Positions 52,837 to 61,539 of a DNA stretch of 64,000 nt are shown here, in pieces. The DNA comes from Candidatus Poribacteria bacterium (GTDB taxonomy: Bacteria > Poribacteria > WGA-4E > WGA-3G), in the NCBI GenBank assembly GCA_965205025.1, contig CBDBFU010000012.1:352001-416000 (forward strand), written 5' to 3'. Made by a program: the position numbers and the translations under genes. The notes under the pieces were generated by a model. The model worked only from the letters and a program-made list of their open reading frames with translations, searched no databases and was not told the DNA's origin. Every line of letters starts with the position of its first letter. The first letter of the stretch is position 1.

Positions 52837-54294
52837 TTATCCTGCTCCAATCAACCTCCGCAACGTCTGAACTAGTGTTCCCTCTGATATCCATTTTGCA
52901 GCAATCCGCCAAGTACTTGTCGAATAAGTAGGATACACATGCATCATCCCAGATAACTTTCTCAACGGTATACCTTGTTGCATTGCCAGAACATACTCGT
53001 GGATTACCTCCCCAGCATTCGTGCCTACAATGTGTACTCCTAATATCTTCCCTAACCATTTGCTTGTAATTACCTTAGTAAATCCTTTAGTTTCACCATC
53101 AGCAACCGCTCTATCAACATCGGTTTGAGGTAACAGAAAAACATCAACATCACCATGTTTCTCACGCGCTTCCTCCTCTGTTAACCCACATCGAGCAACT
53201 TCTGGATCAGAAAATGTTGTCCACGGTACAACGGAATAATCTATCTTCTGTGACCAAGGTAATAAGAAATTTCTAACAAGCAATTGTGCTTGATATGCTG
53301 CCACATGTGTAAATAAATACTCTCCAATGACATCTCCTGCAGCATAGATATTCTTAACATGTGTCTGAAGTTTCCGATTAACCACAATCCTCTTCTTATC
53401 AACATGTACACCAATATCCTCAAGTTTCAATCCTTCTATATTAGGCAACCGCCCCGCAGCTATCAATATCTTATCAAAAACTTGTATATCATCATTTAAT
53501 TCGTTTACGGTCTCGGAACATTTAAAGGACACAGAAATTTCAGAATCCACTTTTCTCATCTCGGATATAGTACAATTTAGTTTGAATTCAATACCCTCCG
53601 CGCTAAGGTATTCCAATATCTTCTCGGAAACATCGAAATCTTCTTTTTTTAAGATGTTACTACTTCTTTGTATGATTGTAACCTGTGATCCTAATCTCTG
53701 AAATGCTTGTCCTAACTCAATGCCAATTGGACCCGCACCAACAACCAACAATCTCTTTGGTAATTCTTCCAAATCCCATACATTTTCACTATCAAGATAA
53801 TCACATGAATCTAACCCTGGTATATCAGGAATTAAAGGACGAGATCCTGTGGAAATGACAAATTTCTTACTATGGATCATTCTTGTTGTTCCATTTTCTG
53901 AATCTTCAACTACGAATGTATTTGGATTTTGAAAATGTCCATTACCAAATACGACTTCAACCCCCATATCGCGAAATCGTTCCGGATTATCATGTTCTTC
54001 TTCAATTGTATGTTGTGCATCTTGGATATATCTCTTCACACTATCCCAATCAATTTCTTGCTCCACACTATCAATACCATAATTCTCTGAATTTTTGAGA
54101 TAGTTAGCAACCTTCGCTACCTTTAAGAGCGCTTTAGATGGCACACATCCAGTCCAAAGACAATCCCCACCAATACGATGTTTTTCAATCAGTACTGTTC
54201 TTCTACCAAGTTTGACACCTGCAATAGCAAGTACAAGTCCAGCACTTCCACCTCCGATGATTGCAATATCAAAGTTTTCCAATGGTGACTCCAA
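52837..54294 (-). CDS. Class I pyridine nucleotide-disulfide oxidoreductase (mercuric reductase/lipoamide dehydrogenase-like)
   Basis: 'IGGGSAG', 'GGDCLWTGCVPSK', 'GAGPIGIE' and 'HVYPT'; lacks the C-terminal Cys-Cys of MerA. Confidence 0.9.
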   Translation of the reverse strand: MESPLENFDIAIIGGGSAGLVLAIAGVKLGRRTVLIEKHRIGGDCLWTGCVPSKALLKVAKVANYLKNSENYGIDSVEQEIDWDSVKRYIQDAQHTIEEEHDNPERFRDMGVEVVFGNGHFQNPNTFVVEDSENGTTRMIHSKKFVISTGSRPLIPDIPGLDSCDYLDSENVWDLEELPKRLLVVGAGPIGIELGQAFQRLGSQVTIIQRSSNILKKEDFDVSEKILEYLSAEGIEFKLNCTISEMRKVDSEISVSFKCSETVNELNDDIQVFDKILIAAGRLPNIEGLKLEDIGVHVDKKRIVVNRKLQTHVKNIYAAGDVIGEYLFTHVAAYQAQLLVRNFLLPWSQKIDYSVVPWTTFSDPEVARCGLTEEEAREKHGDVDVFLLPQTDVDRAVADGETKGFTKVITSKWLGKILGVHIVGTNAGEVIHEYVLAMQQGIPLRKLSGMMHVYPTYSTSTWRIAAKWISEGTLVQTLRRLIGAG

Positions 54295-54312
54295 TACACT
54301 TCATATCTGATC

Positions 54313-55854
54313 CTAATGTCGTAGTACTTTACCGGGAAGTTTATTAGTTACATTCCCATTTTCAACAACCGGTATACCGTTAACAAAAACCCAATCCACA
54401 CCTACTGCTGGTTGTATAGGATCAAACCAAGTTGAACGATCTGATACAGTTTCAGGATTAAAAATGACGATATCTGCGGCTAAACCTTCTGAGATAATAC
54501 CACGATCAGATAAACGAAATCTCTCTGCTGGAAATCCACTCATTTTATAAACAGCTTCTTTCAATGAGACTAACTTTCGTTCACGAACAAACTTACCCAA
54601 ATACTGGACAAAACAACCGTGACTACGGGGATGAGGATGTGGTATATTATAGACTCCATCACTGGCAATCATCATTCTTGGGTGTGTTGCTGTCTGGTTA
54701 AGGATAATCTCATTTTCCTCTGGTGTTGATACCCACGGCATAATGAATGTCTCAATTGCCAATTCATCCTGTATAAAATCATAAGCAAATTCTTCGATCG
54801 ATTTATTTTCTGATTTCGCAGATTCAATTAGTGTCTTTCCAATGTATCTCCCAGATCGATTGTACCCAACAATTTGATTACCCTTCCCCAATTTATCTCT
54901 TAGGTAGGGTAAGGATTCTTCTCTTACTGTGTCATTTTCAAGATTTGCTAACATTGCATCGGGTGTACCAGTTTGATATTCCATAGGTAACATCATAGCA
55001 AGATGTGTCATACCAGCAGGATATAAATAAGATTCAAATGTTAAATCAATATCCTCACGATCAATCCTCTCAAGAACTACTGCAGATTCGTCATCAACTC
55101 TCTCATGTGAAATATGTACGGGTATGTTGGCTTGTCTTGCTATATCTATGGTCTCCTCCCATGCTGCCTTTCTTCCTATGAGTTGATAACGGATATGTGC
55201 TGCATAGATTGCATCATAACTTGCCGCAATCTTCGATAGATATACCAACTCATTCAAATCAGCATTTGCAGACGGTTGATAGTCAAGACCTAAACATAAA
55301 CAACATGCCCCTGCCTCAAGCCACTCGCGTGTAATCCGTTCCATTACTTTTAGTTCATCAGAAGTAGCAGGACGGGGTTCCCATCCCATCGCCGCTAATC
55401 TAACTGAACAATGCGGAACTTGAGGATACAAATTTGCTGGAATCCGATCCTTAAACATTGATAGATATTCATCAGGAGAATTCCAATTAAGTGCAACTTC
55501 ATCATCCCCATAAGCAAATTGTGTATAATGCCACAGTTCTTCGGCAAGATTCTTTGGTAATGGTGCCCAACCAAAACCATCTGGTGCAGCTAAATGGGTT
55601 GTCACACCTTGTCTAACTGCAGCATATTGATCACGACCACCGAGTAAGGAGATTTCTGAATGCACATGCACATCAACGAATCCAGGACATACAACGAGTC
55701 CATCTGCCGAAATCATATTCTTTGATGTAGATGCTTTTAAATCACCTATTACAGCAATCGAATCTCCCATAATACCAATATCTGCAGTAAAAGGCTCATT
55801 TTTGCCACTACCATCAATTATATTTCCACCTGCAATAATAATATCATAATCCAC
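54313..55854 (-). CDS. N-acyl-D-amino-acid deacylase family amidohydrolase
   Basis: 'IIDGSG', 'PGFVDVHVH', 'QGVTT', 'ASDG...PHPRSHG' and 'ADIVIF'. Confidence 0.88.
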   Translation of the reverse strand: MDYDIIIAGGNIIDGSGKNEPFTADIGIMGDSIAVIGDLKASTSKNMISADGLVVCPGFVDVHVHSEISLLGGRDQYAAVRQGVTTHLAAPDGFGWAPLPKNLAEELWHYTQFAYGDDEVALNWNSPDEYLSMFKDRIPANLYPQVPHCSVRLAAMGWEPRPATSDELKVMERITREWLEAGACCLCLGLDYQPSANADLNELVYLSKIAASYDAIYAAHIRYQLIGRKAAWEETIDIARQANIPVHISHERVDDESAVVLERIDREDIDLTFESYLYPAGMTHLAMMLPMEYQTGTPDAMLANLENDTVREESLPYLRDKLGKGNQIVGYNRSGRYIGKTLIESAKSENKSIEEFAYDFIQDELAIETFIMPWVSTPEENEIILNQTATHPRMMIASDGVYNIPHPHPRSHGCFVQYLGKFVRERKLVSLKEAVYKMSGFPAERFRLSDRGIISEGLAADIVIFNPETVSDRSTWFDPIQPAVGVDWVFVNGIPVVENGNVTNKLPGKVLRH

Positions 55855-56380
55855 TAATATATCCTTTCTGGTATGAACAAAGTTTCTTATACCTCACCAG
55901 GTTCTCTTCAAACTAAAATGTATGCTTTATCTTTTACTTCACATATTTATTTCTATCCATATTAAGCAACAATTGTTCTATATCAAAAATAGATACATTT
56001 GCTTAAAACTTGTTGCCATATAGTCCACTAATTAGAGACCTATCTCACTACGCATTATACCATACCTCTAATCATTTAACTATACCTGTCATATTCTTTG
56101 GTGTGTAAATTTTTCCATCCTACCATCCTTCCGTCCTTCCATATTAATGACATAACACAAAAAGTAAAACAAAGAATAGAATAACCAAAATAAATGAAAA
56201 ACATTGAAGAAAACCAAACCATAACACAACTAAAGATATAATATTATAGAAATATCCAAAATAATAAACTAACATTAGTAAATAAAATAATGAAATATAT
56301 CACAATATATTATTTTTATCTTGACACATATACCTTATTATGTTACTATATATATCACAGTAAAAGCATAACTAAAATGT

Positions 56381-56401
56381 TGTTATGAAACTTTCATAAC
56401 A
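56381..56401. promoter_or_regulatory. Perfect palindrome, candidate operator
   Basis: TGTTATGAAA-C-TTTCATAACA, with extra half-sites at 56402-56410 and 56591-56600. Confidence 0.4.
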
Positions 56402-56835
56402 GTTATGAAAAGGAAATCACAATCTGATACACCTACAAACCTATACCAGAACAGGGTTCAGAACACTTCAAACAAGAACAGAGTATGAATTTTTTAAAAA
56501 AATTAAAAAACTAACATATTTTGAGGTATATTAACAAACCCTTTCTGGGACTGACTTTAGAGCGGTTTAAAACATGCTGATTAAAAATTGTGTTATGAAA
56601 ATACTATTATGGTGTATCTCATAGAATGAATCGTTATTAACATCTACAAAAAGAAGATAGAGCAATAAATAGGAAGAAAAGAAATGACAATCCAACATTT
56701 TCATAAAAATACAATCAGAAATAGAAAAAATAGCGTATGGCTTCAGGGGTCAGCAAATGCAGAAAAACCAGAAAATAACACAAAAATCAAAATTCTTAAA
56801 ATTTCAATAAATTACCATAAACCCAGTCTACCACA

Positions 56836-57267
56836 GGGATTAGAGCGTTTTTTCAAAGTTACACCATGTAACGAAAAGTGTAACTTTTTCATTTTACTCT
56901 CTTTCATTTTACTAAAGCGTATCTCATTATTACAGTTCCTCTTCGTAGGGACGGGGTCTCCCCGTCCGAATCTTCGTAGAAACGCCATCTCCCCCTTGGT
57001 TCAAAATATAGCAAATGGCAAGAACAACGAATTCTCCAAATATAGGATGTATGAGATAAACTCGAACATCTTGTCAAAATGGATAGACAAGATATTTCAC
57101 ATTCATACGTTCCCAATTCAATGGATTAAAAGAAAAGGAAAAGATACCAAAGTGTCACTTTTGCAAATTCTTGTTACCACAAAAAAGTAGCTCTAAACAC
57201 AGAGTAGTACTGACGGGATAGAGGTTTTACCAATGTCACATCCTGTGACAAAAAGTGTAACTTTTTT
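56836..57267 (+). repeat. Two imperfect ~53-bp direct repeats (56836-56889 and 57215-57267)
   Basis: Shared pattern GGGAT(T)AGAG..TTTT..CAA, a palindrome, then the exact 16-mer AAAAGTGTAACTTTTT. Confidence 0.6.
56945..56968 (+). repeat. REP-like GTAG palindrome
   Basis: GTAG-GGACGGGG-TCT-CCCCGTCC-G, a GC-rich hairpin in AT-rich intergenic DNA. Confidence 0.65.
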
Positions 57268-57584
57268 AAACATATAAACAATACAGTTATTACTATTGTG
57301 AATAATTTAAAACGCTAAATTCTCACAAGAATTACACTTGGTTCAATATACAGGGCAAGGAAAAACTATGATTTCGTGAAATTCATCACAAAACTTTACA
57401 CACCCCTCTATTTTTTGGTGGTTTGCATTCACATAGGTGTCATGATATAATCTAATCAGAATTGAATTAATATGGTAATATTTCCTAATAGGTTTACATA
57501 CATCTACACTAATCCTATAAAATTTTGTTCAGAGAACAATAAGAGATTTATATACGGCAAGAAATACAATTTTGGAGAATTAGA

Positions 57585-58772
57585 ATGAAATCCTATCGAC
57601 AAATCGTTGAGGAAGCAAAAACAGAGATACCAGAAGTATCAATCGACGAAGTAAAAGACGAACAGGAACAGGACAACGACTTTGTTCTACTTGATGTAAG
57701 AGATGAAGATGAATACCGGGCTGGATATATACCTAATGCGGTTCATGTTACAAGAGGTATGTTAGAATTTTCTGTTGAAAACTATATCCCCGACCGAGAT
57801 CAGAAGGTTGTCGTATACTGTGCTGCGGGACTCCGTTCATTATTAGCAGCGAAATCTCTTCGTGAAATGGGTTATACAGACACTGTTTCTATGGCAGGGG
57901 GATATCGTGATTGGTCGGCAGCTGGTTATCCAACCGACCAAGATAAACCAATGTCTCATGAACAACTTGATCGCTATAGTCGACATTTTATGTTGACCGA
58001 AGTCGGTGAGCAAGGTCAAGCAAAACTACTTGATGCAAAAGTATTAATGGTGGGAGCAGGAGGATTAGGATCACCAGCAGGAGTATATCTCGGTGCTGCT
58101 GGAATAGGACAAATGGGGATAATCGATTCAGATGTAGTTGAATTAAGCAACCTACAAAGACAAATTTTACATAGAACTGAGGCAGTAGGTACACCCAAAG
58201 TACAATCTGCAACTACCACTATAAAATCTCTTAATCCTGATGTAGAAATTACACCATATAACACTCGTTTAACTGCTGATAATGTTGAAGAGATCTTCTC
58301 AGAATATGACCTAATCGTTGATGGATGCGATAACTTTGCTACACGTTTCCTTGTAAACGATGCTGCCTATTTTATGAAGAAACCGGTTGTACATGGTAGT
58401 ATTTTTCAGTTTGAAGGACAAGTAACCCTCTTAGATCCAAATGAGGGTCCCTGTTACCGTTGTATGTATCCTACGCCACCACCTCCTGGTTTAGTCCCAA
58501 GCTGAAGTGAAGCAGGAGTCCTGGGCGTGCTCCCAGGTATAATCGGCGTGATGATGGCAACAGAAGCAATAAAATATATTCTTGGAATCGGTGAACCCCT
58601 AATAGGTAGACTTATTCTATATGATGCGCTTGGAATGACCTATCGAGAAATGAAGACAGTTAAAGATGAACATTGTCCCTTATGCAGTGATAATCCCGTA
58701 ATTACACAATTAATTGATGATTATGATGCAGCCGCGGAGAATCCAGAAACTTATGCACCTGCTGCGGATTAA
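57585..58772 (+). CDS. moeB: Rhodanese-MoeB/ThiF (E1-like) adenylyltransferase/sulfurtransferase with in-frame TGA, probable selenoprotein (395 aa)
   Basis: Rhodanese 'YCAAGLRS', 'RYSRH', 'GAGGLGSP', 'SNLQRQ', and Zn motifs CYRC and CPLC. ORFs 57585-58505 and 58527-58772 are in one frame and read PPPPGLVPS-TGA-SEAGVLGVLPG. Confidence 0.88.
58506..58537 (+). promoter_or_regulatory. Putative bacterial SECIS element
   Basis: Stem CCTGGG (58520-58525) / CCCAGG (58532-58537) with loop CGTGCT, separated from TGA 58503-58505 by 20 nt. Confidence 0.7.
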
Positions 58773-58820
58773 GAATATATCAAACTAAGTATAATTGAAC
58801 GAAATTATGATAATTGGGTT

Positions 58821-60143
58821 ATGAATATGATTACACATATTCGAATGAAAAACTTCAAATCCTGGAAAGATAGTGGAAAAATTGATCTTGCTCCACTAAC
58901 TGGATTCTTTGGCACCAATAGTTCTGGTAAGAGTAGTCTGATGCAGATGTTGCTTGTATTAAAACAAACTGCACAGAATTCAAATCCAGATGAAGTTATC
59001 TCATTTGGAAATAAGGATTCATTCATAAATCTTGGCTCATTCAAAGATGTGATATTTGGTCATTTAAAAGATGAAATTCTTGAATTAGAGTTTGGATGTA
59101 AATTACAGAAACCAATTATGTTAGATGTATATGATAATCAAGATTTAATGATTAAAATTGAATCCTTCATTTTCAACACTTCAATTTCATCAATATCATC
59201 TAATTTACATGTCTCTGAGCTGATATATACGGTTGAGGTTCCAACCAGTATTATTATTCGTTGGAAGGACAGAGAAATGTTAGTCGAATTTAATTCTCAA
59301 CAAGAAATAAGTAAGATTTATGATACTTCATATGGTGATAGGAATTGCTATGGTAAAACATCTATATTGTATAAGGAATTAAGATTATTCACCGATGCAT
59401 TTGAAACTACATTTTCTAATGTTTTCTATCTTGGTCCAACAAGAGTAGAACCACAACGATTCTATCACTGGCAAGGAACACATCCAAAGGATATAAATCA
59501 GTGGGGTAATCAGACAATCGAAGCACTTCTATCTGCCCGTGTGCGGAAATTGAAAACAAATCAGGATAAAGAGAAAATACCTATTGAAGACAAAATCTCT
59601 AATTGGTTACAGGAAATGGACCTTGCACATTCTTATTCTCTTGACTTGGTGACTGAAGGTGCTCAAGAGTATGAAGTAAGACTACAAAAAAACTCATTGA
59701 GTCCACCGGTAACCCTTGTTGATATGGGTTACGGTCTTGGTCAATTCCTACCTGTTCTCGTTTTATGTTATTATGCCCCAGAAGGATCAACACTCATACT
59801 TGAACAACCTGGTATTCACCTACATCCAAGAGTTCAATCACAAGTTGCTGACCTCCTAATAGAAGTTGTCAAAGAACGAAATCTACAAATACTGGTTGAA
59901 AGCCATAGCGAACATCTGTTAAATAGACTACAACGACGCATCGCCGAAGAGAAAATTAGTTCTGAAGAAACCGCACTCTATTTTTGTAGAAACGATGACG
60001 GAGAATCAACAATTGAACAATTGAAAATAGATGAATTCGGTAATATCTTCAATTGGCCAGACAAATTCTTTGGAGACGAAATGGGAGACCTATTTGCTAT
60101 GACAGAAGCACAGAATAAACGTCAGAAAAGATCGGAGAGTTGA
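58821..60143 (+). CDS. AAA_21/AAA_15-type ABC ATPase with DUF3696-like C-terminus
   Basis: 'KNFKSW', 'GTNSSGKSS', 'DMGYGLGQFLP', 'LEQPGIHLHP', 'ESHSEH' and 'WPDKFF'. Confidence 0.88.
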   Translation: MNMITHIRMKNFKSWKDSGKIDLAPLTGFFGTNSSGKSSLMQMLLVLKQTAQNSNPDEVISFGNKDSFINLGSFKDVIFGHLKDEILELEFGCKLQKPIMLDVYDNQDLMIKIESFIFNTSISSISSNLHVSELIYTVEVPTSIIIRWKDREMLVEFNSQQEISKIYDTSYGDRNCYGKTSILYKELRLFTDAFETTFSNVFYLGPTRVEPQRFYHWQGTHPKDINQWGNQTIEALLSARVRKLKTNQDKEKIPIEDKISNWLQEMDLAHSYSLDLVTEGAQEYEVRLQKNSLSPPVTLVDMGYGLGQFLPVLVLCYYAPEGSTLILEQPGIHLHPRVQSQVADLLIEVVKERNLQILVESHSEHLLNRLQRRIAEEKISSEETALYFCRNDDGESTIEQLKIDEFGNIFNWPDKFFGDEMGDLFAMTEAQNKRQKRSES

Positions 60144-60663
60144 TGGAGGCAGTCATTGTAGATACAAATGTTATCGTATATGCTAATGGTACAGATGACG
60201 AAAACCTTCTTGATTGTGTTAAATCCTGTCAAATTCGACTTAATCAGATTCTCAACAGACCTGAGGTTGTTCTAATTGACGATAATTGGAGAATTCTGCG
60301 TGAATATCGAAAAATACAAAACCAAACACTAAGAAGGGTATTGGTGATCTTTTTGTAAAAACATTACTTCAAAATCTAACCAATACTAATTTCTGTAGAA
60401 TTGTTAAAATTACATCATTGACCGATAATGGAACAGAATTTAATGAGTTTCCTGATGATCCTGAATTAACTGATTTTGATCCAGATGATAGAAAATTTAT
60501 CGCTGTTGCTAATGCATACTATACGCAATACCAAGAAACTCCATCAGTACTATTAGCAATAGATAGAGGATGGCTTCATTTTATTCATCCTTTACAAAAT
60601 TATGGAGTTAAAATTGAGCTTATATGTGAAGATGATATGCTCCAAATAAAATATACTCCTTAA
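60143..60663 (+). CDS. PIN-domain-like protein, one base missing near A run 60310-60314
   Basis: 'VIVDTNVIV', 'ILREY' and 'DPDDRKFIAVA'. The two ORF pieces join on adding one A; TGATG overlap with the ATPase gene. Confidence 0.65.
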
Positions 60664-60690
60664 ATCAAATTATCACTTTCAAAATATTTA

Positions 60691-61539
60691 ATGCGTACAA
60701 AATACCGCATAATTTTCCTTCTCTCACCAGTAATTTGGTGGCTGCTCTTTTTCTTTTTTCTCCCCTTAACCTATGTAATAATTTATAGTTTCTTAGAACG
60801 TGATACTTATGGAGGTATCCAGTGGACTTTCACACTCGAAAACTATTTTCGTTCTATTGACGGTCTATACCTTCAAGTACTATGGAGATCAATAAAGACA
60901 GGATTCGTATGTACTATCGTTTGTCTAATAATTGGATATCCGTTTGCATATTATCTGGCAGTATTTAGACCAAAACATAGAAACATATTACTTCTATTAA
61001 TTGTAATTCCGTTTTGGATTAACTTCCTAATACGCACCTATGCCTGGATTCTCATACTACGAAAAGAAGGTATTTTAAACAGTTTCCTTTCAAATCTTAT
61101 CCCTGGAATTCAACCACTTGAACTACTTAATACACCCATTGCTGTTCAAATCGGTTTAGTCTACACCTATCTTCCCTTTATGATACTTCCTCTTTACGCA
61201 TCATTAGAACAGATTGATTTTTCATTGATAGATGCCGCAATGGATTTAGGGGCTACTCCGCGTAACGCTTTTTGGCATATAACATTCCCCCTTAGTCTAC
61301 CCGGTATTCTGGCAGGATCAATGTTAGTATTTATTCCTACTGTTGGAGCATTTTTGACACCCGATTTACTGGGTGGTGGAAAAGTTAGTTATATCGGGAA
61401 TGTAATCGAAAGACAATTCAAATCTTCACTTGATTATCCATTTGGATCCGCTTTATCTATTTTATTGATGTGTTTTGTCCTTATCGGAATAATCATCTAT
61501 TTTCGTACGTTAAAAGAGAACAATAACTTAGGTTATTAG
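60691..61539 (+). CDS. potB: Spermidine/putrescine ABC transporter permease (PotB-like)
   Basis: 'IGYPFAY', 'PFWINFLIRTYAW', 'YLPFMILPLY' and EAA-type loop 'DAAMDLGA'. Confidence 0.88.
   Translation: MRTKYRIIFLLSPVIWWLLFFFFLPLTYVIIYSFLERDTYGGIQWTFTLENYFRSIDGLYLQVLWRSIKTGFVCTIVCLIIGYPFAYYLAVFRPKHRNILLLLIVIPFWINFLIRTYAWILILRKEGILNSFLSNLIPGIQPLELLNTPIAVQIGLVYTYLPFMILPLYASLEQIDFSLIDAAMDLGATPRNAFWHITFPLSLPGILAGSMLVFIPTVGAFLTPDLLGGGKVSYIGNVIERQFKSSLDYPFGSALSILLMCFVLIGIIIYFRTLKENNNLGY

What the first reader, a model, noticed from the sequence alone, without database searches (positions are those of the whole stretch)
57585..58772. E1-like (rhodanese-MoeB) enzyme with probable selenocysteine at the catalytic-loop cysteine and a SECIS hairpin
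Seen: the two ORF pieces share one frame and are separated only by TGA at 58503-58505, reading PPPPGLVPS-[TGA]-SEAGVLGVLPG. A 6-bp hairpin follows (CCTGGG-CGTGCT-CCCAGG); its loop begins after a 20-nt spacer and has G in the second position. The hairpin region uses five consecutive G/C-ending codons (GTC CTG GGC GTG CTC) in a gene that otherwise prefers A/T third positions, which suggests selection on RNA structure. Known: MoeB/MoeZ/Uba4 homologs read 'VPSCAEGGVLG' here. That Cys is the active-site-loop residue of ThiF/Uba4-type enzymes that links covalently to the activated ubiquitin-like sulfur carrier. The geometry fits the bacterial SECIS model. Inference: this is a selenoenzyme E1 that could form a selenoester or selenosulfide with its carrier and relay sulfur or selenium through its own N-terminal rhodanese Cys. 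Sec-containing MoeB-family sequences may have been predicted from metagenomes before; I know of no biochemistry. Standard pipelines will call it a pseudogene.
Basis: partly seen in the sequence, partly recalled or inferred. Interest (0 to 1): 0.85.

Follow-up and report, generated by a model that had tools for sequence, protein, structure and literature searches.

The report
Selenocysteine in a rhodanese-MoeB enzyme
This is a real gene for a sulfur-carrier-activating (E1-like) enzyme in which the reactive loop cysteine is replaced by selenocysteine; the family has been on lists of predicted selenoproteins since 2005 but has never been studied at the bench.

Summary
One in-frame TGA (58503-58505) splits a 395-residue rhodanese + ThiF/MoeB protein, and a 6-bp hairpin lies 14 nt downstream.

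It is a genuine selenoprotein gene:
- The genome carries tRNA-Sec, selA, selB and selD.
- The same single TGA is present in 133 of 137 genomes of the order, down to 60% protein identity.
- Homologs from other phyla have Cys at this position.
- The part after the TGA is under purifying selection.
- Codons +5 to +10 are almost frozen at synonymous sites. The Cys paralog in the same genomes is not.

Sec307 aligns with E. coli MoeB Cys187, ThiF Cys184 and the Uba4 thioester cysteine.

Sec forms also occur in Entotheonella, Nitrospinota, Rokubacteria/Methylomirabilota and Planctomycetota. They carry nearly the same hairpin and form one clade.

Two things were not shown. There is no compensatory covariation, and the sulfur-carrier partner is unresolved.

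A "MoeB" selenoprotein family is already listed in the 2005, 2008, 2022 and 2026 literature. I therefore rate this a new member of a known kind, with moderate interest. No biochemistry appeared in my searches, and databases hold its close relatives as 306-residue truncations.

The parts
57585..58772 (+). Complete gene for a 395-residue selenoprotein (rhodanese + ThiF/MoeB E1-like adenylyltransferase), read with TGA 58503-58505 as Sec307
   Evidence: NCBIfam NF006444 (PRK08762 MoeB) scores 533.8 bits against a cut-off of 449 and covers residues 5-384, across the TGA. pN/pS is 0.083 before and 0.147 after the TGA (25 pairwise comparisons).
57642..57923 (+). N-terminal rhodanese domain (residues 20-113). 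The active-site Cys79 codon TGT is at 57819-57821, in the motif C79-A-A-G82-L-R84-S85.
   Evidence: Pfam PF00581, E 1.6e-20. C79, G82, R84 and S85 are invariant in 16 aligned homologs.
57975..58679 (+). ThiF/MoeB adenylation domain (residues 131-365). It includes the glycine-rich nucleotide-binding motif GAGGLGSP (residues 157-164).
   Evidence: Pfam PF00899, E 9.4e-85, profile positions 1-237 of 238. It aligns end to end with E. coli MoeB 1jw9_B and ThiF 1zfn_A.
58452..58463 (+). First CxxC pair (Cys290, Cys293) of the likely structural zinc site
   Evidence: Invariant in 16 homologs. It aligns with the PCYRC motif of E. coli MoeB. The zinc role is recalled from the MoeB/ThiF literature and was not tested.
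58503..58505 (+). Sec-encoding TGA (residue 307). It is equivalent to E. coli MoeB Cys187, ThiF Cys184 and C. thermophilum Uba4 Cys202.
   Evidence: TGA is present in 40 of 40 extracted orthologs and 133 of 137 order genomes. Cys codons occupy this place in 66 of 80 homologous loci from other lineages. No variant was seen here in contigs of 4 public runs.
58512..58547 (+). Bacterial SECIS element. The apical hairpin is 58520-58525 paired with 58532-58537, loop CGUGCU at 58526-58531. A weaker possible lower stem pairs 58512-58517 with 58542-58547.
   Evidence: The apical helix is paired in 98% of cells across 33 distinct sequences; the lower helix reaches 85%. Synonymous freezing is shown, with the paralog control. 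All 6 pairs in fixed register occur in 22 of 24 Sec-type rows against 1 of 66 Cys-type rows. It meets the model constraints quoted.
58674..58685 (+). Second CxxC pair (Cys364, Cys367), downstream of the TGA
   Evidence: Invariant in 16 homologs. Its conservation shows that the part after the TGA is needed.

Best explanation
The gene encodes a selenocysteine-containing E1-like enzyme that activates sulfur-carrier proteins, in a Candidatus Poribacteria genome.

How the codon is read: UGA 58503-58505 is decoded as Sec by SelB and tRNA-Sec. They are recruited by a SECIS hairpin 14 nt downstream, which lies inside the codons for the conserved peptide V-L-G-V-L-P-G.

What the protein is: an N-terminal rhodanese domain (persulfide carrier, Cys79) fused to a ThiF/MoeB adenylation domain. 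Sec307 lies in the crossover loop, at the cysteine that forms the covalent intermediate with the carrier in ThiF and Uba4.

Inferred mechanism:
1. The enzyme adenylates the C-terminal Gly-Gly of a ThiS/MoaD-fold carrier.
2. Sec307 attacks the adenylate to form an acyl-selenoester.
3. The Cys79 persulfide attacks that ester to give an acyl-disulfide.
4. Sec307 may then resolve the acyl-disulfide, releasing the carrier thiocarboxylate and leaving a Se-S bond that is easily reduced.

Shown here: gene integrity, Sec machinery, conservation of the TGA and the hairpin, Sec/Cys alignment, and the position in the fold.

Inferred, not shown: Sec insertion itself, every chemical step, and the carrier. 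The genome offers four candidates: MoaD, ThiS, a CysO/SAMP-like protein and one more MoaD-like protein.
For: Sec machinery in the genome:
- tRNA-Sec scores 78.5 bits (cut-off 47), and ARAGORN calls SeC with anticodon tca.
- selB lies next to it (366 bits).
- selA scores 599 bits.
- selD scores 364 bits and itself contains one in-frame TGA.

Conservation of the TGA:
- A full-length ortholog with exactly one TGA is present in 40 of 41 relatives and 133 of 137 genomes of the order, across 4 families and down to 60% identity.
- Fifteen full-length homologs at 54-62% identity have an invariant Cys at position 307.
- Of the 80 best loci in genome contigs, 14 have TGA, 59 TGC and 7 TGT.

The hairpin:
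- Synonymous sites are frozen over the hairpin but not in the Cys paralog of the same genomes.
- The hairpin in fixed register is complete in 22 of 24 Sec rows and 1 of 66 Cys rows.
- The published bSECIS constraints are met: 6-nt loop, 6-bp stem, G in loop position 2, 20-nt spacing, -9.2 kcal/mol.

The protein:
- Purifying selection acts after the TGA (pN/pS 0.147), and the downstream CPLC motif is invariant.
- NF006444 scores above its cut-off across the TGA.
- Sec307 aligns with MoeB C187, ThiF C184 and the Uba4 catalytic Cys. The thioester role of that Cys in Uba4 comes from passages of PMC7527816 and PMC11662940.

Weak evidence of expression: contigs from two metatranscriptomic libraries bridge the TGA in a relative about 88% identical.
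Against: - No compensatory base-pair changes support the hairpin. Only one-sided, wobble-compatible changes occur. The covariation score is reached by 23 of 500 shuffles, and the percentage paired by 100 of 500.
- The single sequence folds no better than shuffles.
- The peptide LGVLPG tends by itself to encode CUGGG/CCCAG, and GC-rich Cys forms also fold locally (mean -8.4 against -10.4 kcal/mol).
- The genomes compared are kin, so the counts overstate independent support.
- There is no protein-level evidence of Sec.
- The equivalent Cys is, from recall, dispensable in E. coli MoeB. A covalent role for Sec307 is therefore not guaranteed.
- The carrier is unresolved. No carrier gene lies beside any of 31 Sec-type loci. 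In sister families that lack the Sec enzyme, the short Cys paralog sits inside the cysO cluster.
Confidence: 0.85

Rival explanations
1. The TGA is a true stop. The locus is a decaying or split gene that yields a 306-residue truncated ThiF protein, as gene callers report.
For: Public gene calls for close relatives are 306-aa proteins. TGA is also used as an ordinary stop in the window: 6 of 30 long open frames end in TGA.
Against: - The same single TGA is kept in 133 of 137 order genomes and in five other phyla.
- The 88 codons after it stay in frame with no other stop, at pN/pS 0.147.
- The invariant second CxxC pair lies downstream.
- The complete Sec machinery is present.
- The break falls in the middle of the ThiF fold.
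Confidence: 0.02
2. The UGA is read through, but by a near-cognate tRNA (Trp or Cys) or only at a low level, not by SelB and tRNA-Sec. The conserved hairpin would then serve another purpose, such as pausing or mRNA stability.
For: Sec insertion was not shown directly. The hairpin lacks compensatory covariation.
Against: - The hairpin is tied to TGA: 22 of 24 Sec rows against 1 of 66 Cys rows.
- It meets all four bSECIS model constraints.
- The TGA replaces a reactive Cys, the classic Sec/Cys pair.
- selA, selB, selD and tRNA-Sec are present, and selD is itself TGA-containing.
Confidence: 0.04
3. The gene is a genuine selenoprotein, and its job is what the database name says: MoeB of molybdenum-cofactor synthesis, acting on MoaD only, with Sec307 not forming any covalent intermediate.
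For: - NF006444 is named MoeB.
- The genome has moaD-moaE.
- The literature files the family under molybdopterin biosynthesis.
- From recall, the equivalent Cys187 is not essential in E. coli MoeB.
- In sister families the short paralog, not this enzyme, is embedded in the cysO cluster.
Against: - Cys-type members of the same rhodanese-fused family lie next to a CysO-like carrier, and usually a CysK/M homolog, in 44 of 66 loci.
- Mycobacterial MoeZR serves both MoaD and CysO (abstract of PMC3227635).
- Selection strong enough to keep Sec and a SECIS across phyla argues that residue 307 is chemically used.
Confidence: 0.25

Closest known systems
'Molybdopterin biosynthesis MoeB protein' selenoprotein family (Zhang, Fomenko & Gladyshev 2005, PMC1088965; GOS survey 2008, PMC2398784; reviews PMC9312934 and PMC13188914)
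   Same: It is a ThiF/COG0476 protein with an in-frame TGA, Cys homologs and a SECIS-like hairpin, predicted from marine metagenomes. Counts were 11 Sargasso sequences and 19 GOS sequences (passages seen).
   Different: Those papers give no Sec motif (the table entry is '-'), no residue assignment and no function beyond the name. I could not see their figures or supplements, so I could not verify that their Sec is at this same residue or that their proteins carry the N-terminal rhodanese. New here: the Poribacteria-wide occurrence, the mapping to the crossover-loop Cys, and the single Sec clade.
NCBIfam NF006444 (PRK08762), N-terminal rhodanese + MoeB
   Same: The match is end to end, profile positions 4-383 of 387, at 533.8 bits against a cut-off of 449.
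   Different: In the table it is typed 'equivalog' and described only as MoeB, unlike the table's two (seleno)protein-named models. The aligned homologs from outside the Sec clade have Cys.
Uba4 / MOCS3 (eukaryotic Urm1 E1 with a rhodanese domain)
   Same: Both combine an adenylation domain with a rhodanese domain. Sec307 aligns with the crossover-loop Cys (CtUba4 Cys202) that forms the thioester with Urm1 before the rhodanese persulfide attacks (passages of PMC7527816 and PMC11662940).
   Different: Here the rhodanese is N-terminal, not C-terminal. The residue is Sec, not Cys. The organism is a bacterium. The carrier is unknown.
Mycobacterial MoeZR (and the CysO-CysM-Mec+ cysteine pathway)
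   Same: Both are rhodanese-fused MoeB homologs that sulfurate carrier proteins. MoeZR serves both MoaD and CysO (abstract of PMC3227635). Cys-type relatives of the window's enzyme sit beside cysO-like and cysK/M-like genes in 44 of 66 loci. The window's genome has a CysK/M, PAPS-reductase, CysO-like, JAMM cluster.
   Different: MoeZ has a C-terminal rhodanese. NF005902 (MoeZ) scores 383.8 bits, below its cut-off of 647. In this genome the enzyme is not linked to the cysO cluster.
E. coli ThiF (Cys184) and MoeB (Cys187)
   Same: Same fold and the same aligned position. The ThiF-ThiS acyl-disulfide is cited in PMC11662940.
   Different: Neither has a rhodanese domain, and both have Cys, not Sec. 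That ThiF Cys184 makes the acyldisulfide and that MoeB Cys187 is dispensable are recalled, not read here.

Membership tests
Bacterial selenoprotein gene | In-frame TGA aligned with a conserved Cys in homologs (Sec/Cys pair) | tested here: met
   Position 307 is an invariant Cys in 15 full-length homologs. Of 80 related loci, 14 have TGA, 59 TGC and 7 TGT.
Bacterial selenoprotein gene | The TGA is conserved in orthologs of other organisms | tested here: met
   40 of 41 relatives. 133 of 137 genomes of the order; the misses are G024, G099, G142 and G144, at 73-95% completeness. TGA also occurs in five other phyla.
Bacterial selenoprotein gene | bSECIS model: 3-9 nt apical loop, 4-16 bp upper stem, G in the first two loop positions, 16-37 nt from UGA to loop, MFE at or below -7.5 kcal/mol (PMC13188914, Fig. 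2 legend) | tested here: met
   Loop CGUGCU (6 nt), 6-bp stem, G at loop position 2, 20-nt spacing, and -9.2 kcal/mol for the hairpin alone. bSECISearch itself was not available.
Bacterial selenoprotein gene | Hairpin supported by covariation | tested here: inconclusive
   The apical helix is paired in 98% of cells but has no pair changed on both sides. The covariation score is reached by 23 of 500 shuffles. Support comes from synonymous-site conservation instead.
Bacterial selenoprotein gene | The genome encodes selA, selB, selC (tRNA-Sec) and selD | tested here: met
   tRNA-Sec; selA, 599 bits; selB, 366 bits; selD, 364 bits. All are above the curated cut-offs.
Bacterial selenoprotein gene | Selenium is actually incorporated into the protein | not testable with these tools
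   This needs 75Se labelling or mass spectrometry. Contigs from RNA libraries bridging the TGA show at most transcription.
ThiF/MoeB E1-like adenylyltransferase (PF00899; NF006444) | Profile match above the curated threshold over the whole domain | tested here: met
   PF00899 scores 284 bits (cut-off 28.1), profile positions 1-237 of 238. NF006444 scores 533.8 bits against 449.
ThiF/MoeB E1-like adenylyltransferase (PF00899; NF006444) | Glycine-rich nucleotide-binding motif and two CxxC pairs | tested here: met
   G157-P164, C290/C293 and C364/C367 are invariant in 16 sequences.
ThiF/MoeB E1-like adenylyltransferase (PF00899; NF006444) | ATP-dependent adenylation of a Gly-Gly-ended ThiS/MoaD-fold carrier | not testable with these tools
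   Four candidate carriers exist in the genome. None is adjacent to the gene.
Rhodanese sulfurtransferase domain | Active-site loop with catalytic Cys (C-x-x-G-x-R-S/T) | tested here: met
   PF00581, E 1.6e-20. C79, G82, R84 and S85 are invariant.
MoeZ / Uba4 / MOCS3 architecture | Rhodanese domain C-terminal to the adenylation domain | tested here: not met
   The rhodanese is at residues 20-113, N-terminal to ThiF at 131-365. NF005902 (MoeZ) scores 383.8 bits, below its cut-off of 647.
Published 'MoeB' selenoprotein family (2005) | Sec at the same residue and the same domain architecture | not testable with these tools
   The text passages list only the family name, COG0476 or PF00899/PF05237, and '-' for the motif. 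Figures and supplements could not be seen.

The most novel reading that the evidence does not exclude
This would be a natural E1-type enzyme that uses a selenoester rather than a thioester with its ubiquitin-like carrier. Sec307 would be both the acyl acceptor and the residue that resolves the rhodanese acyl-disulfide through a Se-S bond.

The Sec form arose once and spread across at least six phyla: Poribacteria, Planctomycetota, Rokubacteria/Methylomirabilota, Nitrospinota and Entotheonella. Its origin may have been eased by the conserved peptide L-G-V-L-P-G, whose codons are already self-complementary (CUGGG...CCCAG). That would have provided a ready-made SECIS next to a reactive Cys.

A bolder tail, which I cannot exclude but have no evidence for, is that the enzyme loads selenium rather than sulfur onto its carrier.
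Probability: 0.4. Interest if true: 0.6.

Novelty: new member of a known kind. Interest (0 to 1): 0.4.

Why it matters
- **Annotation.** Close relatives of this gene are held in public protein collections as 306-residue truncated ThiF proteins. The same single TGA is in 133 of 137 genomes of this sponge-symbiont order and in at least five other phyla, where gene callers would presumably truncate it the same way. Sulfur-relay capacity is therefore mis-scored in these genomes.
- **Enzymology.** Sec sits exactly at the cysteine that Uba4 needs for the thioester step. This offers a natural selenium-for-sulfur substitution with which to test why E1-like enzymes pass through a covalent intermediate, and which residue resolves the acyl-disulfide. 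PMC11662940 leaves that residue open as 'CysX'.
- **Evolution.** It is a clean case of a SECIS embedded in, and perhaps pre-figured by, a highly conserved peptide motif. It has a single origin and a patchy cross-phylum distribution.

None of this changes the catalogue of selenoprotein families, which already lists MoeB.

Tried and rejected
- **Single-sequence folding.** The hairpin is there, but the 60-nt stretch is not more stable than shuffles (z = +1.0). I rejected this as evidence.
- **Covariation.** No compensatory changes in the apical stem. The proposed lower stem (58512-58517 with 58542-58547) is only 85% paired, and one of its pairs is mostly unpaired. I keep it as 'possible' only.
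- **Rfam scan of 53000-61000.** Only a chance mir-221 hit (E 0.22). Rfam gave nothing for the hairpin.
- **Neighbourhood clustering of ORFs in 97 loci.** The result is noisy because of shadow ORFs in GC-rich genomes. No conserved neighbour of the Sec-type gene emerged.
- **Carrier by synteny.** The signals conflict. The rhodanese-fused Cys forms sit beside cysO in other phyla, while the short paralog sits in the cysO cluster in sister families. The partner is left open.
- **Phyletic profile of the CysO-like carrier.** It is present in 149 of 151 class genomes, including those without the Sec enzyme, so it does not discriminate.
- **dS with Jukes-Cantor correction.** Saturated upstream of the TGA (nan). 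Replaced by raw pN/pS.
- **Depth figures.** These are contig word depths and were not used to rank expression.
Full report
**Observation.** The + strand ORF starting at 57585 stops at TGA 58503-58505 and continues in the same frame to TAA at 58770-58772. Read through, it gives a 395-residue protein...PPPPGLVPS-U-SEAGVLGVLPG.... The hairpin is CCTGGG / loop CGTGCT / CCCAGG at 58520-58537. Its stem starts 14 nt after the TGA and its loop 20 nt after it, with G as the second loop base. GTC CTG GGC GTG CTC is the longest run of G/C-ending codons in a gene whose GC3 is 0.258; the window's GC is 0.366. Taken alone, however, the 60 nt after the TGA fold no better than shuffled sequence (z = +1.0; 170 of 200 shuffles fold at least as well). 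The hairpin needs comparative support.

**What the protein is.** Pfam finds Rhodanese at residues 20-113 and ThiF at residues 131-365, the latter covering profile positions 1-237 of 238. NCBIfam NF006444 (PRK08762, MoeB with an N-terminal rhodanese) matches residues 5-384 at 533.8 bits, above its cut-off of 449 and straight across the TGA. The MoeZ model NF005902 and the cyanobacterial-type model NF005646 score below their cut-offs. In 16 aligned homologs the following are invariant: the rhodanese active-site residues C79, G82, R84 and S85; the glycine-rich nucleotide motif; and two CxxC pairs, C290/C293 and C364/C367. The second pair lies downstream of the TGA.

**Is the TGA read as Sec?** The window's genome is 5.66 Mb in 33 contigs, 95.5% complete.
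- It has a tRNA-Sec (78.5 bits against a cut-off of 47; ARAGORN calls SeC with anticodon tca), and selB lies directly beside it.
- It also has selA and a selD that itself carries one in-frame TGA.
- A six-frame search of relatives finds a full-length ortholog with exactly one TGA in 40 of 41 genomes. The miss, G024, is 73% complete.
- In a draw of 151 genomes of the class, 133 of the 137 genomes of the order (four families, down to 60% protein identity) have the full-length ortholog with one TGA. The four without it are G024, G099, G142 and G144, at 73-95% completeness. None of the 14 genomes of the other five families has the fused form.
- In 40 extracted orthologs the TGA is at residue 307 or 308.
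- Against the window's copy, 25 equal-length orthologs give pN/pS of 0.083 before the TGA and 0.147 after it. The C-terminal 88 codons are therefore translated and constrained.
- TGA is also an ordinary stop in this window: 6 of 30 long frames end in it. This is not a TGA-sense genetic code.

**The hairpin.** Across the 40 orthologs, third-position entropy is typically 1.1-1.9 bits at four-fold codons. It drops to 0.76, 0, 0, 0, 0.17 and 0.61 at codons +5 to +10 (GTC CTG GGC GTG CTC CCA), which is exactly the hairpin. Every one of these genomes also has a short paralog of about 270-290 residues, without a rhodanese domain and about 62% identical, that reads SCQEAGVFGVLPG with a Cys codon. In 37 of the 38 paralog loci fetched (one did not match my motif), the same six codons have entropies of 1.93, 1.12, 1.08, 1.56, 1.43 and 1.65. 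The constraint therefore belongs to the TGA-containing gene, not to the peptide. The hairpin meets the four constraints of the published bacterial SECIS model as given in the Fig. 2 legend of PMC13188914: a 6-nt loop, a 6-bp stem, G in loop position 2, 20-nt spacing, and -9.2 kcal/mol.

Covariation is a negative result and should be stated plainly. On 33 distinct sequences the apical helix is paired in 98% of cells, but the only changes are one-sided and wobble-compatible (C-G to U-G, U-A to U-G). No pair in the apical helix changes on both sides. The covariation score is reached by 23 of 500 shuffles, and the percentage paired by 100 of 500. A possible lower stem is weak.

**Beyond the order.** A scan of one genome per species names the nearest records Candidatus Poribacteria. 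One truncated database protein carries the same name. Of the best 80 loci, 14 have TGA at the aligned codon, 59 TGC and 7 TGT.
- The TGA forms outside Poribacteria come from Entotheonella, Nitrospinota, Rokubacteria/Methylomirabilota, Planctomycetota and one unnamed bacterium.
- Most keep GTCCTGGGCGTGCTCCC(A/G)GG nearly letter for letter at only 54-60% protein identity. The Entotheonella copy keeps the stem with a different loop.
- In fixed register, all six pairs form in 22 of 24 Sec-type rows and 1 of 66 Cys-type rows. GC-rich Cys forms nevertheless still fold locally in other registers, with a mean of -8.4 against -10.4 kcal/mol.
- On a quick maximum-likelihood tree of 90 rows, all 24 Sec rows fall in one group of 27 (SH-aLRT 97). 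That group also holds three Cys rows with a divergent loop. The Sec label needs at least two changes.
- This is compatible with one origin and one reversion, followed by spread across phyla. No root or donor was tested.
- The codons of L-G...P-G are inherently self-complementary, which may have eased the origin of the SECIS. That is my inference.

**Position in the fold.** HMMER alignments to solved structures place residue 307 on E. coli MoeB Cys187 (PCYRC plus 12 residues), on E. coli ThiF Cys184, and on the cysteine in SCGEAGIMG of Chaetomium Uba4. Passages of PMC7527816 and PMC11662940 make three points:
- Uba4 Cys202 lies in the 'crossover loop' and forms the thioester with Urm1.
- Cys202 and the rhodanese Cys397 are both required for thiocarboxylation.
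- The residue that resolves the final acyl-disulfide is still unidentified.

From this I infer the mechanism: adenylation of a carrier, a selenoester at Sec307, attack by the Cys79 persulfide, and possibly resolution through a Se-S bond. No step of this chemistry was tested. From recall, the equivalent Cys is dispensable in E. coli MoeB.

**Which carrier?** The genome has four ThiS/MoaD-family genes:
- moaD overlapping moaE;
- a ThiS ending in GG, beside an apparently fragmented thiO;
- a MoaD-like gene beside a molybdenum hydroxylase;
- a CysO/SAMP-like gene ending in GGK, in a cluster of an Rrf2-like ORF (named from its N-terminal sequence by recall; not scanned), a CysK/M homolog (by BLAST), a PAPS reductase, the CysO-like gene and a JAMM+NIL protein.

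None of these is near the Sec gene. In 44 of 66 Cys-type loci of the same fused family, mostly Actinomycetota and Chloroflexota, a CysO-like ORF lies directly next to the E1, usually with a CysK/M homolog. No Sec-type locus (0 of 31) has one. This points to protein-thiocarboxylate-dependent cysteine synthesis, as with mycobacterial MoeZR, which serves both MoaD and CysO (abstract of PMC3227635).

There is evidence the other way. The CysO-like carrier is present in 149 of 151 class genomes, including those without the Sec enzyme. In two such relatives, G041 and G050, the short Cys paralog sits inside the cluster cysK / PAPS reductase / cysO / moeB / cysM-like / JAMM. The partner of the Sec enzyme is therefore unresolved. 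My rough odds are one third CysO-like, one third MoaD and/or ThiS, and the rest several carriers or something else.

**Reads.** Contigs of four public runs were laid on 58200-58800.
- One 7,584-nt contig is identical over the whole stretch. It may be the window's own source, so it is not independent.
- No run shows another letter at 58503-58505.
- Two contigs from metatranscriptomic libraries bridge the TGA without gaps: 58275-58770 with 60 differences, and 58344-58770 with 55 differences. They come from a relative, and DNA carry-over cannot be excluded. This is only a weak hint of transcription.

**Known or new?** A 'molybdopterin biosynthesis MoeB' selenoprotein family was reported from the Sargasso Sea in 2005 (11 sequences; PMC1088965) and again in GOS (19 sequences; PMC2398784). 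It appears in the selenoprotein tables of PMC9312934 and PMC13188914, with representative MBT7809913.1 and '-' as the motif, and is listed as not detected in an Olavius symbiont (PMC1976440). These are passages seen. I could not see figures or supplements, so I cannot confirm that the residue and architecture are the same.

Searches for selenoprotein + MoeB, selenocysteine/MoeB/rhodanese/SECIS and Poribacteria + selenocysteine found no paper on the biochemistry of a Sec-MoeB, or on this gene in Poribacteria. One paper notes that selA and selB are enriched in sponge symbionts (PMC5649159). Another lists Poribacteria among phyla with Sec-hydrogenases (PMC13582414).

**Verdict.** This is a real selenoprotein and a new, well-supported member of a catalogued but uncharacterised family. 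The added value here is the assignment of Sec to the E1 crossover-loop cysteine, the order-wide conservation, the single Sec clade across phyla, and the synonymous-site footprint of the SECIS.

Noticed in passing
G000:C4:104148-105074 (locus L013): The selD (selenophosphate synthetase) match contains one in-frame TGA, so it is probably itself a selenoprotein.
   Followed up: no
G000:C20:46321-48363 (loci L001, L011): tRNA-Sec lies immediately beside selB on the same strand.
   Followed up: partly
window 55855-57584: About 1.7 kb upstream of the gene holds only short, low-complexity-looking ORFs. The evalue-mode Rfam scan of 53000-61000 placed no hit there. I do not know what it is.
   Followed up: partly
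window 58821-60663: Directly downstream is a 440-aa AAA_15 / AAA_21 (AbiEii-like) / DUF3696 ATPase. It is followed by two small ORFs (60140-60358 and 60418-60663) with no Pfam match. This may be a defence or toxin-antitoxin-like module.
   Followed up: partly
G000:C7:193117-193992 (loci L092, L178): This is the short Cys paralog of the E1. It has a ThiF domain only, and its best NCBIfam hit is also NF006444, at 422 bits, below the cut-off. A 194-aa ORF (192600-193184) overlaps its start; it had no NCBIfam match and was not scanned against Pfam.
   Followed up: partly
G000:C15:314416-317824 (locus L094): A sulfur-assimilation cluster in this order: an Rrf2-like ORF, a CysK/M homolog, a PAPS-reductase-domain protein, a CysO/SAMP-like carrier ending GGK, and a JAMM (Prok-JAB) protein fused to a NIL domain.
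   Followed up: partly
G000:C2:57761-58448: The moaD ORF runs three codons past its Gly-Gly (...VTGGTDV) and overlaps the start of moaE. This would need C-terminal trimming, or the real stop or start may be different.
   Followed up: no
G000:C17:3639-4780: The FAD-oxidase (thiO-like) gene next to thiS appears split into three overlapping ORFs of 244, 113 and 90 aa. Possible causes are frameshifts, assembly errors or a pseudogene.
   Followed up: no
window 58494-58577 in runs X1, X3, X21, X22: Summed contig depth rises 20- to 200-fold over the SECIS region only. Many short contigs from co-occurring relatives match just this stretch, in line with its unusual nucleotide conservation.
   Followed up: no
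G025:C9:27719-28318: In this one relative the short Cys paralog match carries a TAG and a TAA and covers only residues 122-321. It is possibly broken there.
   Followed up: no
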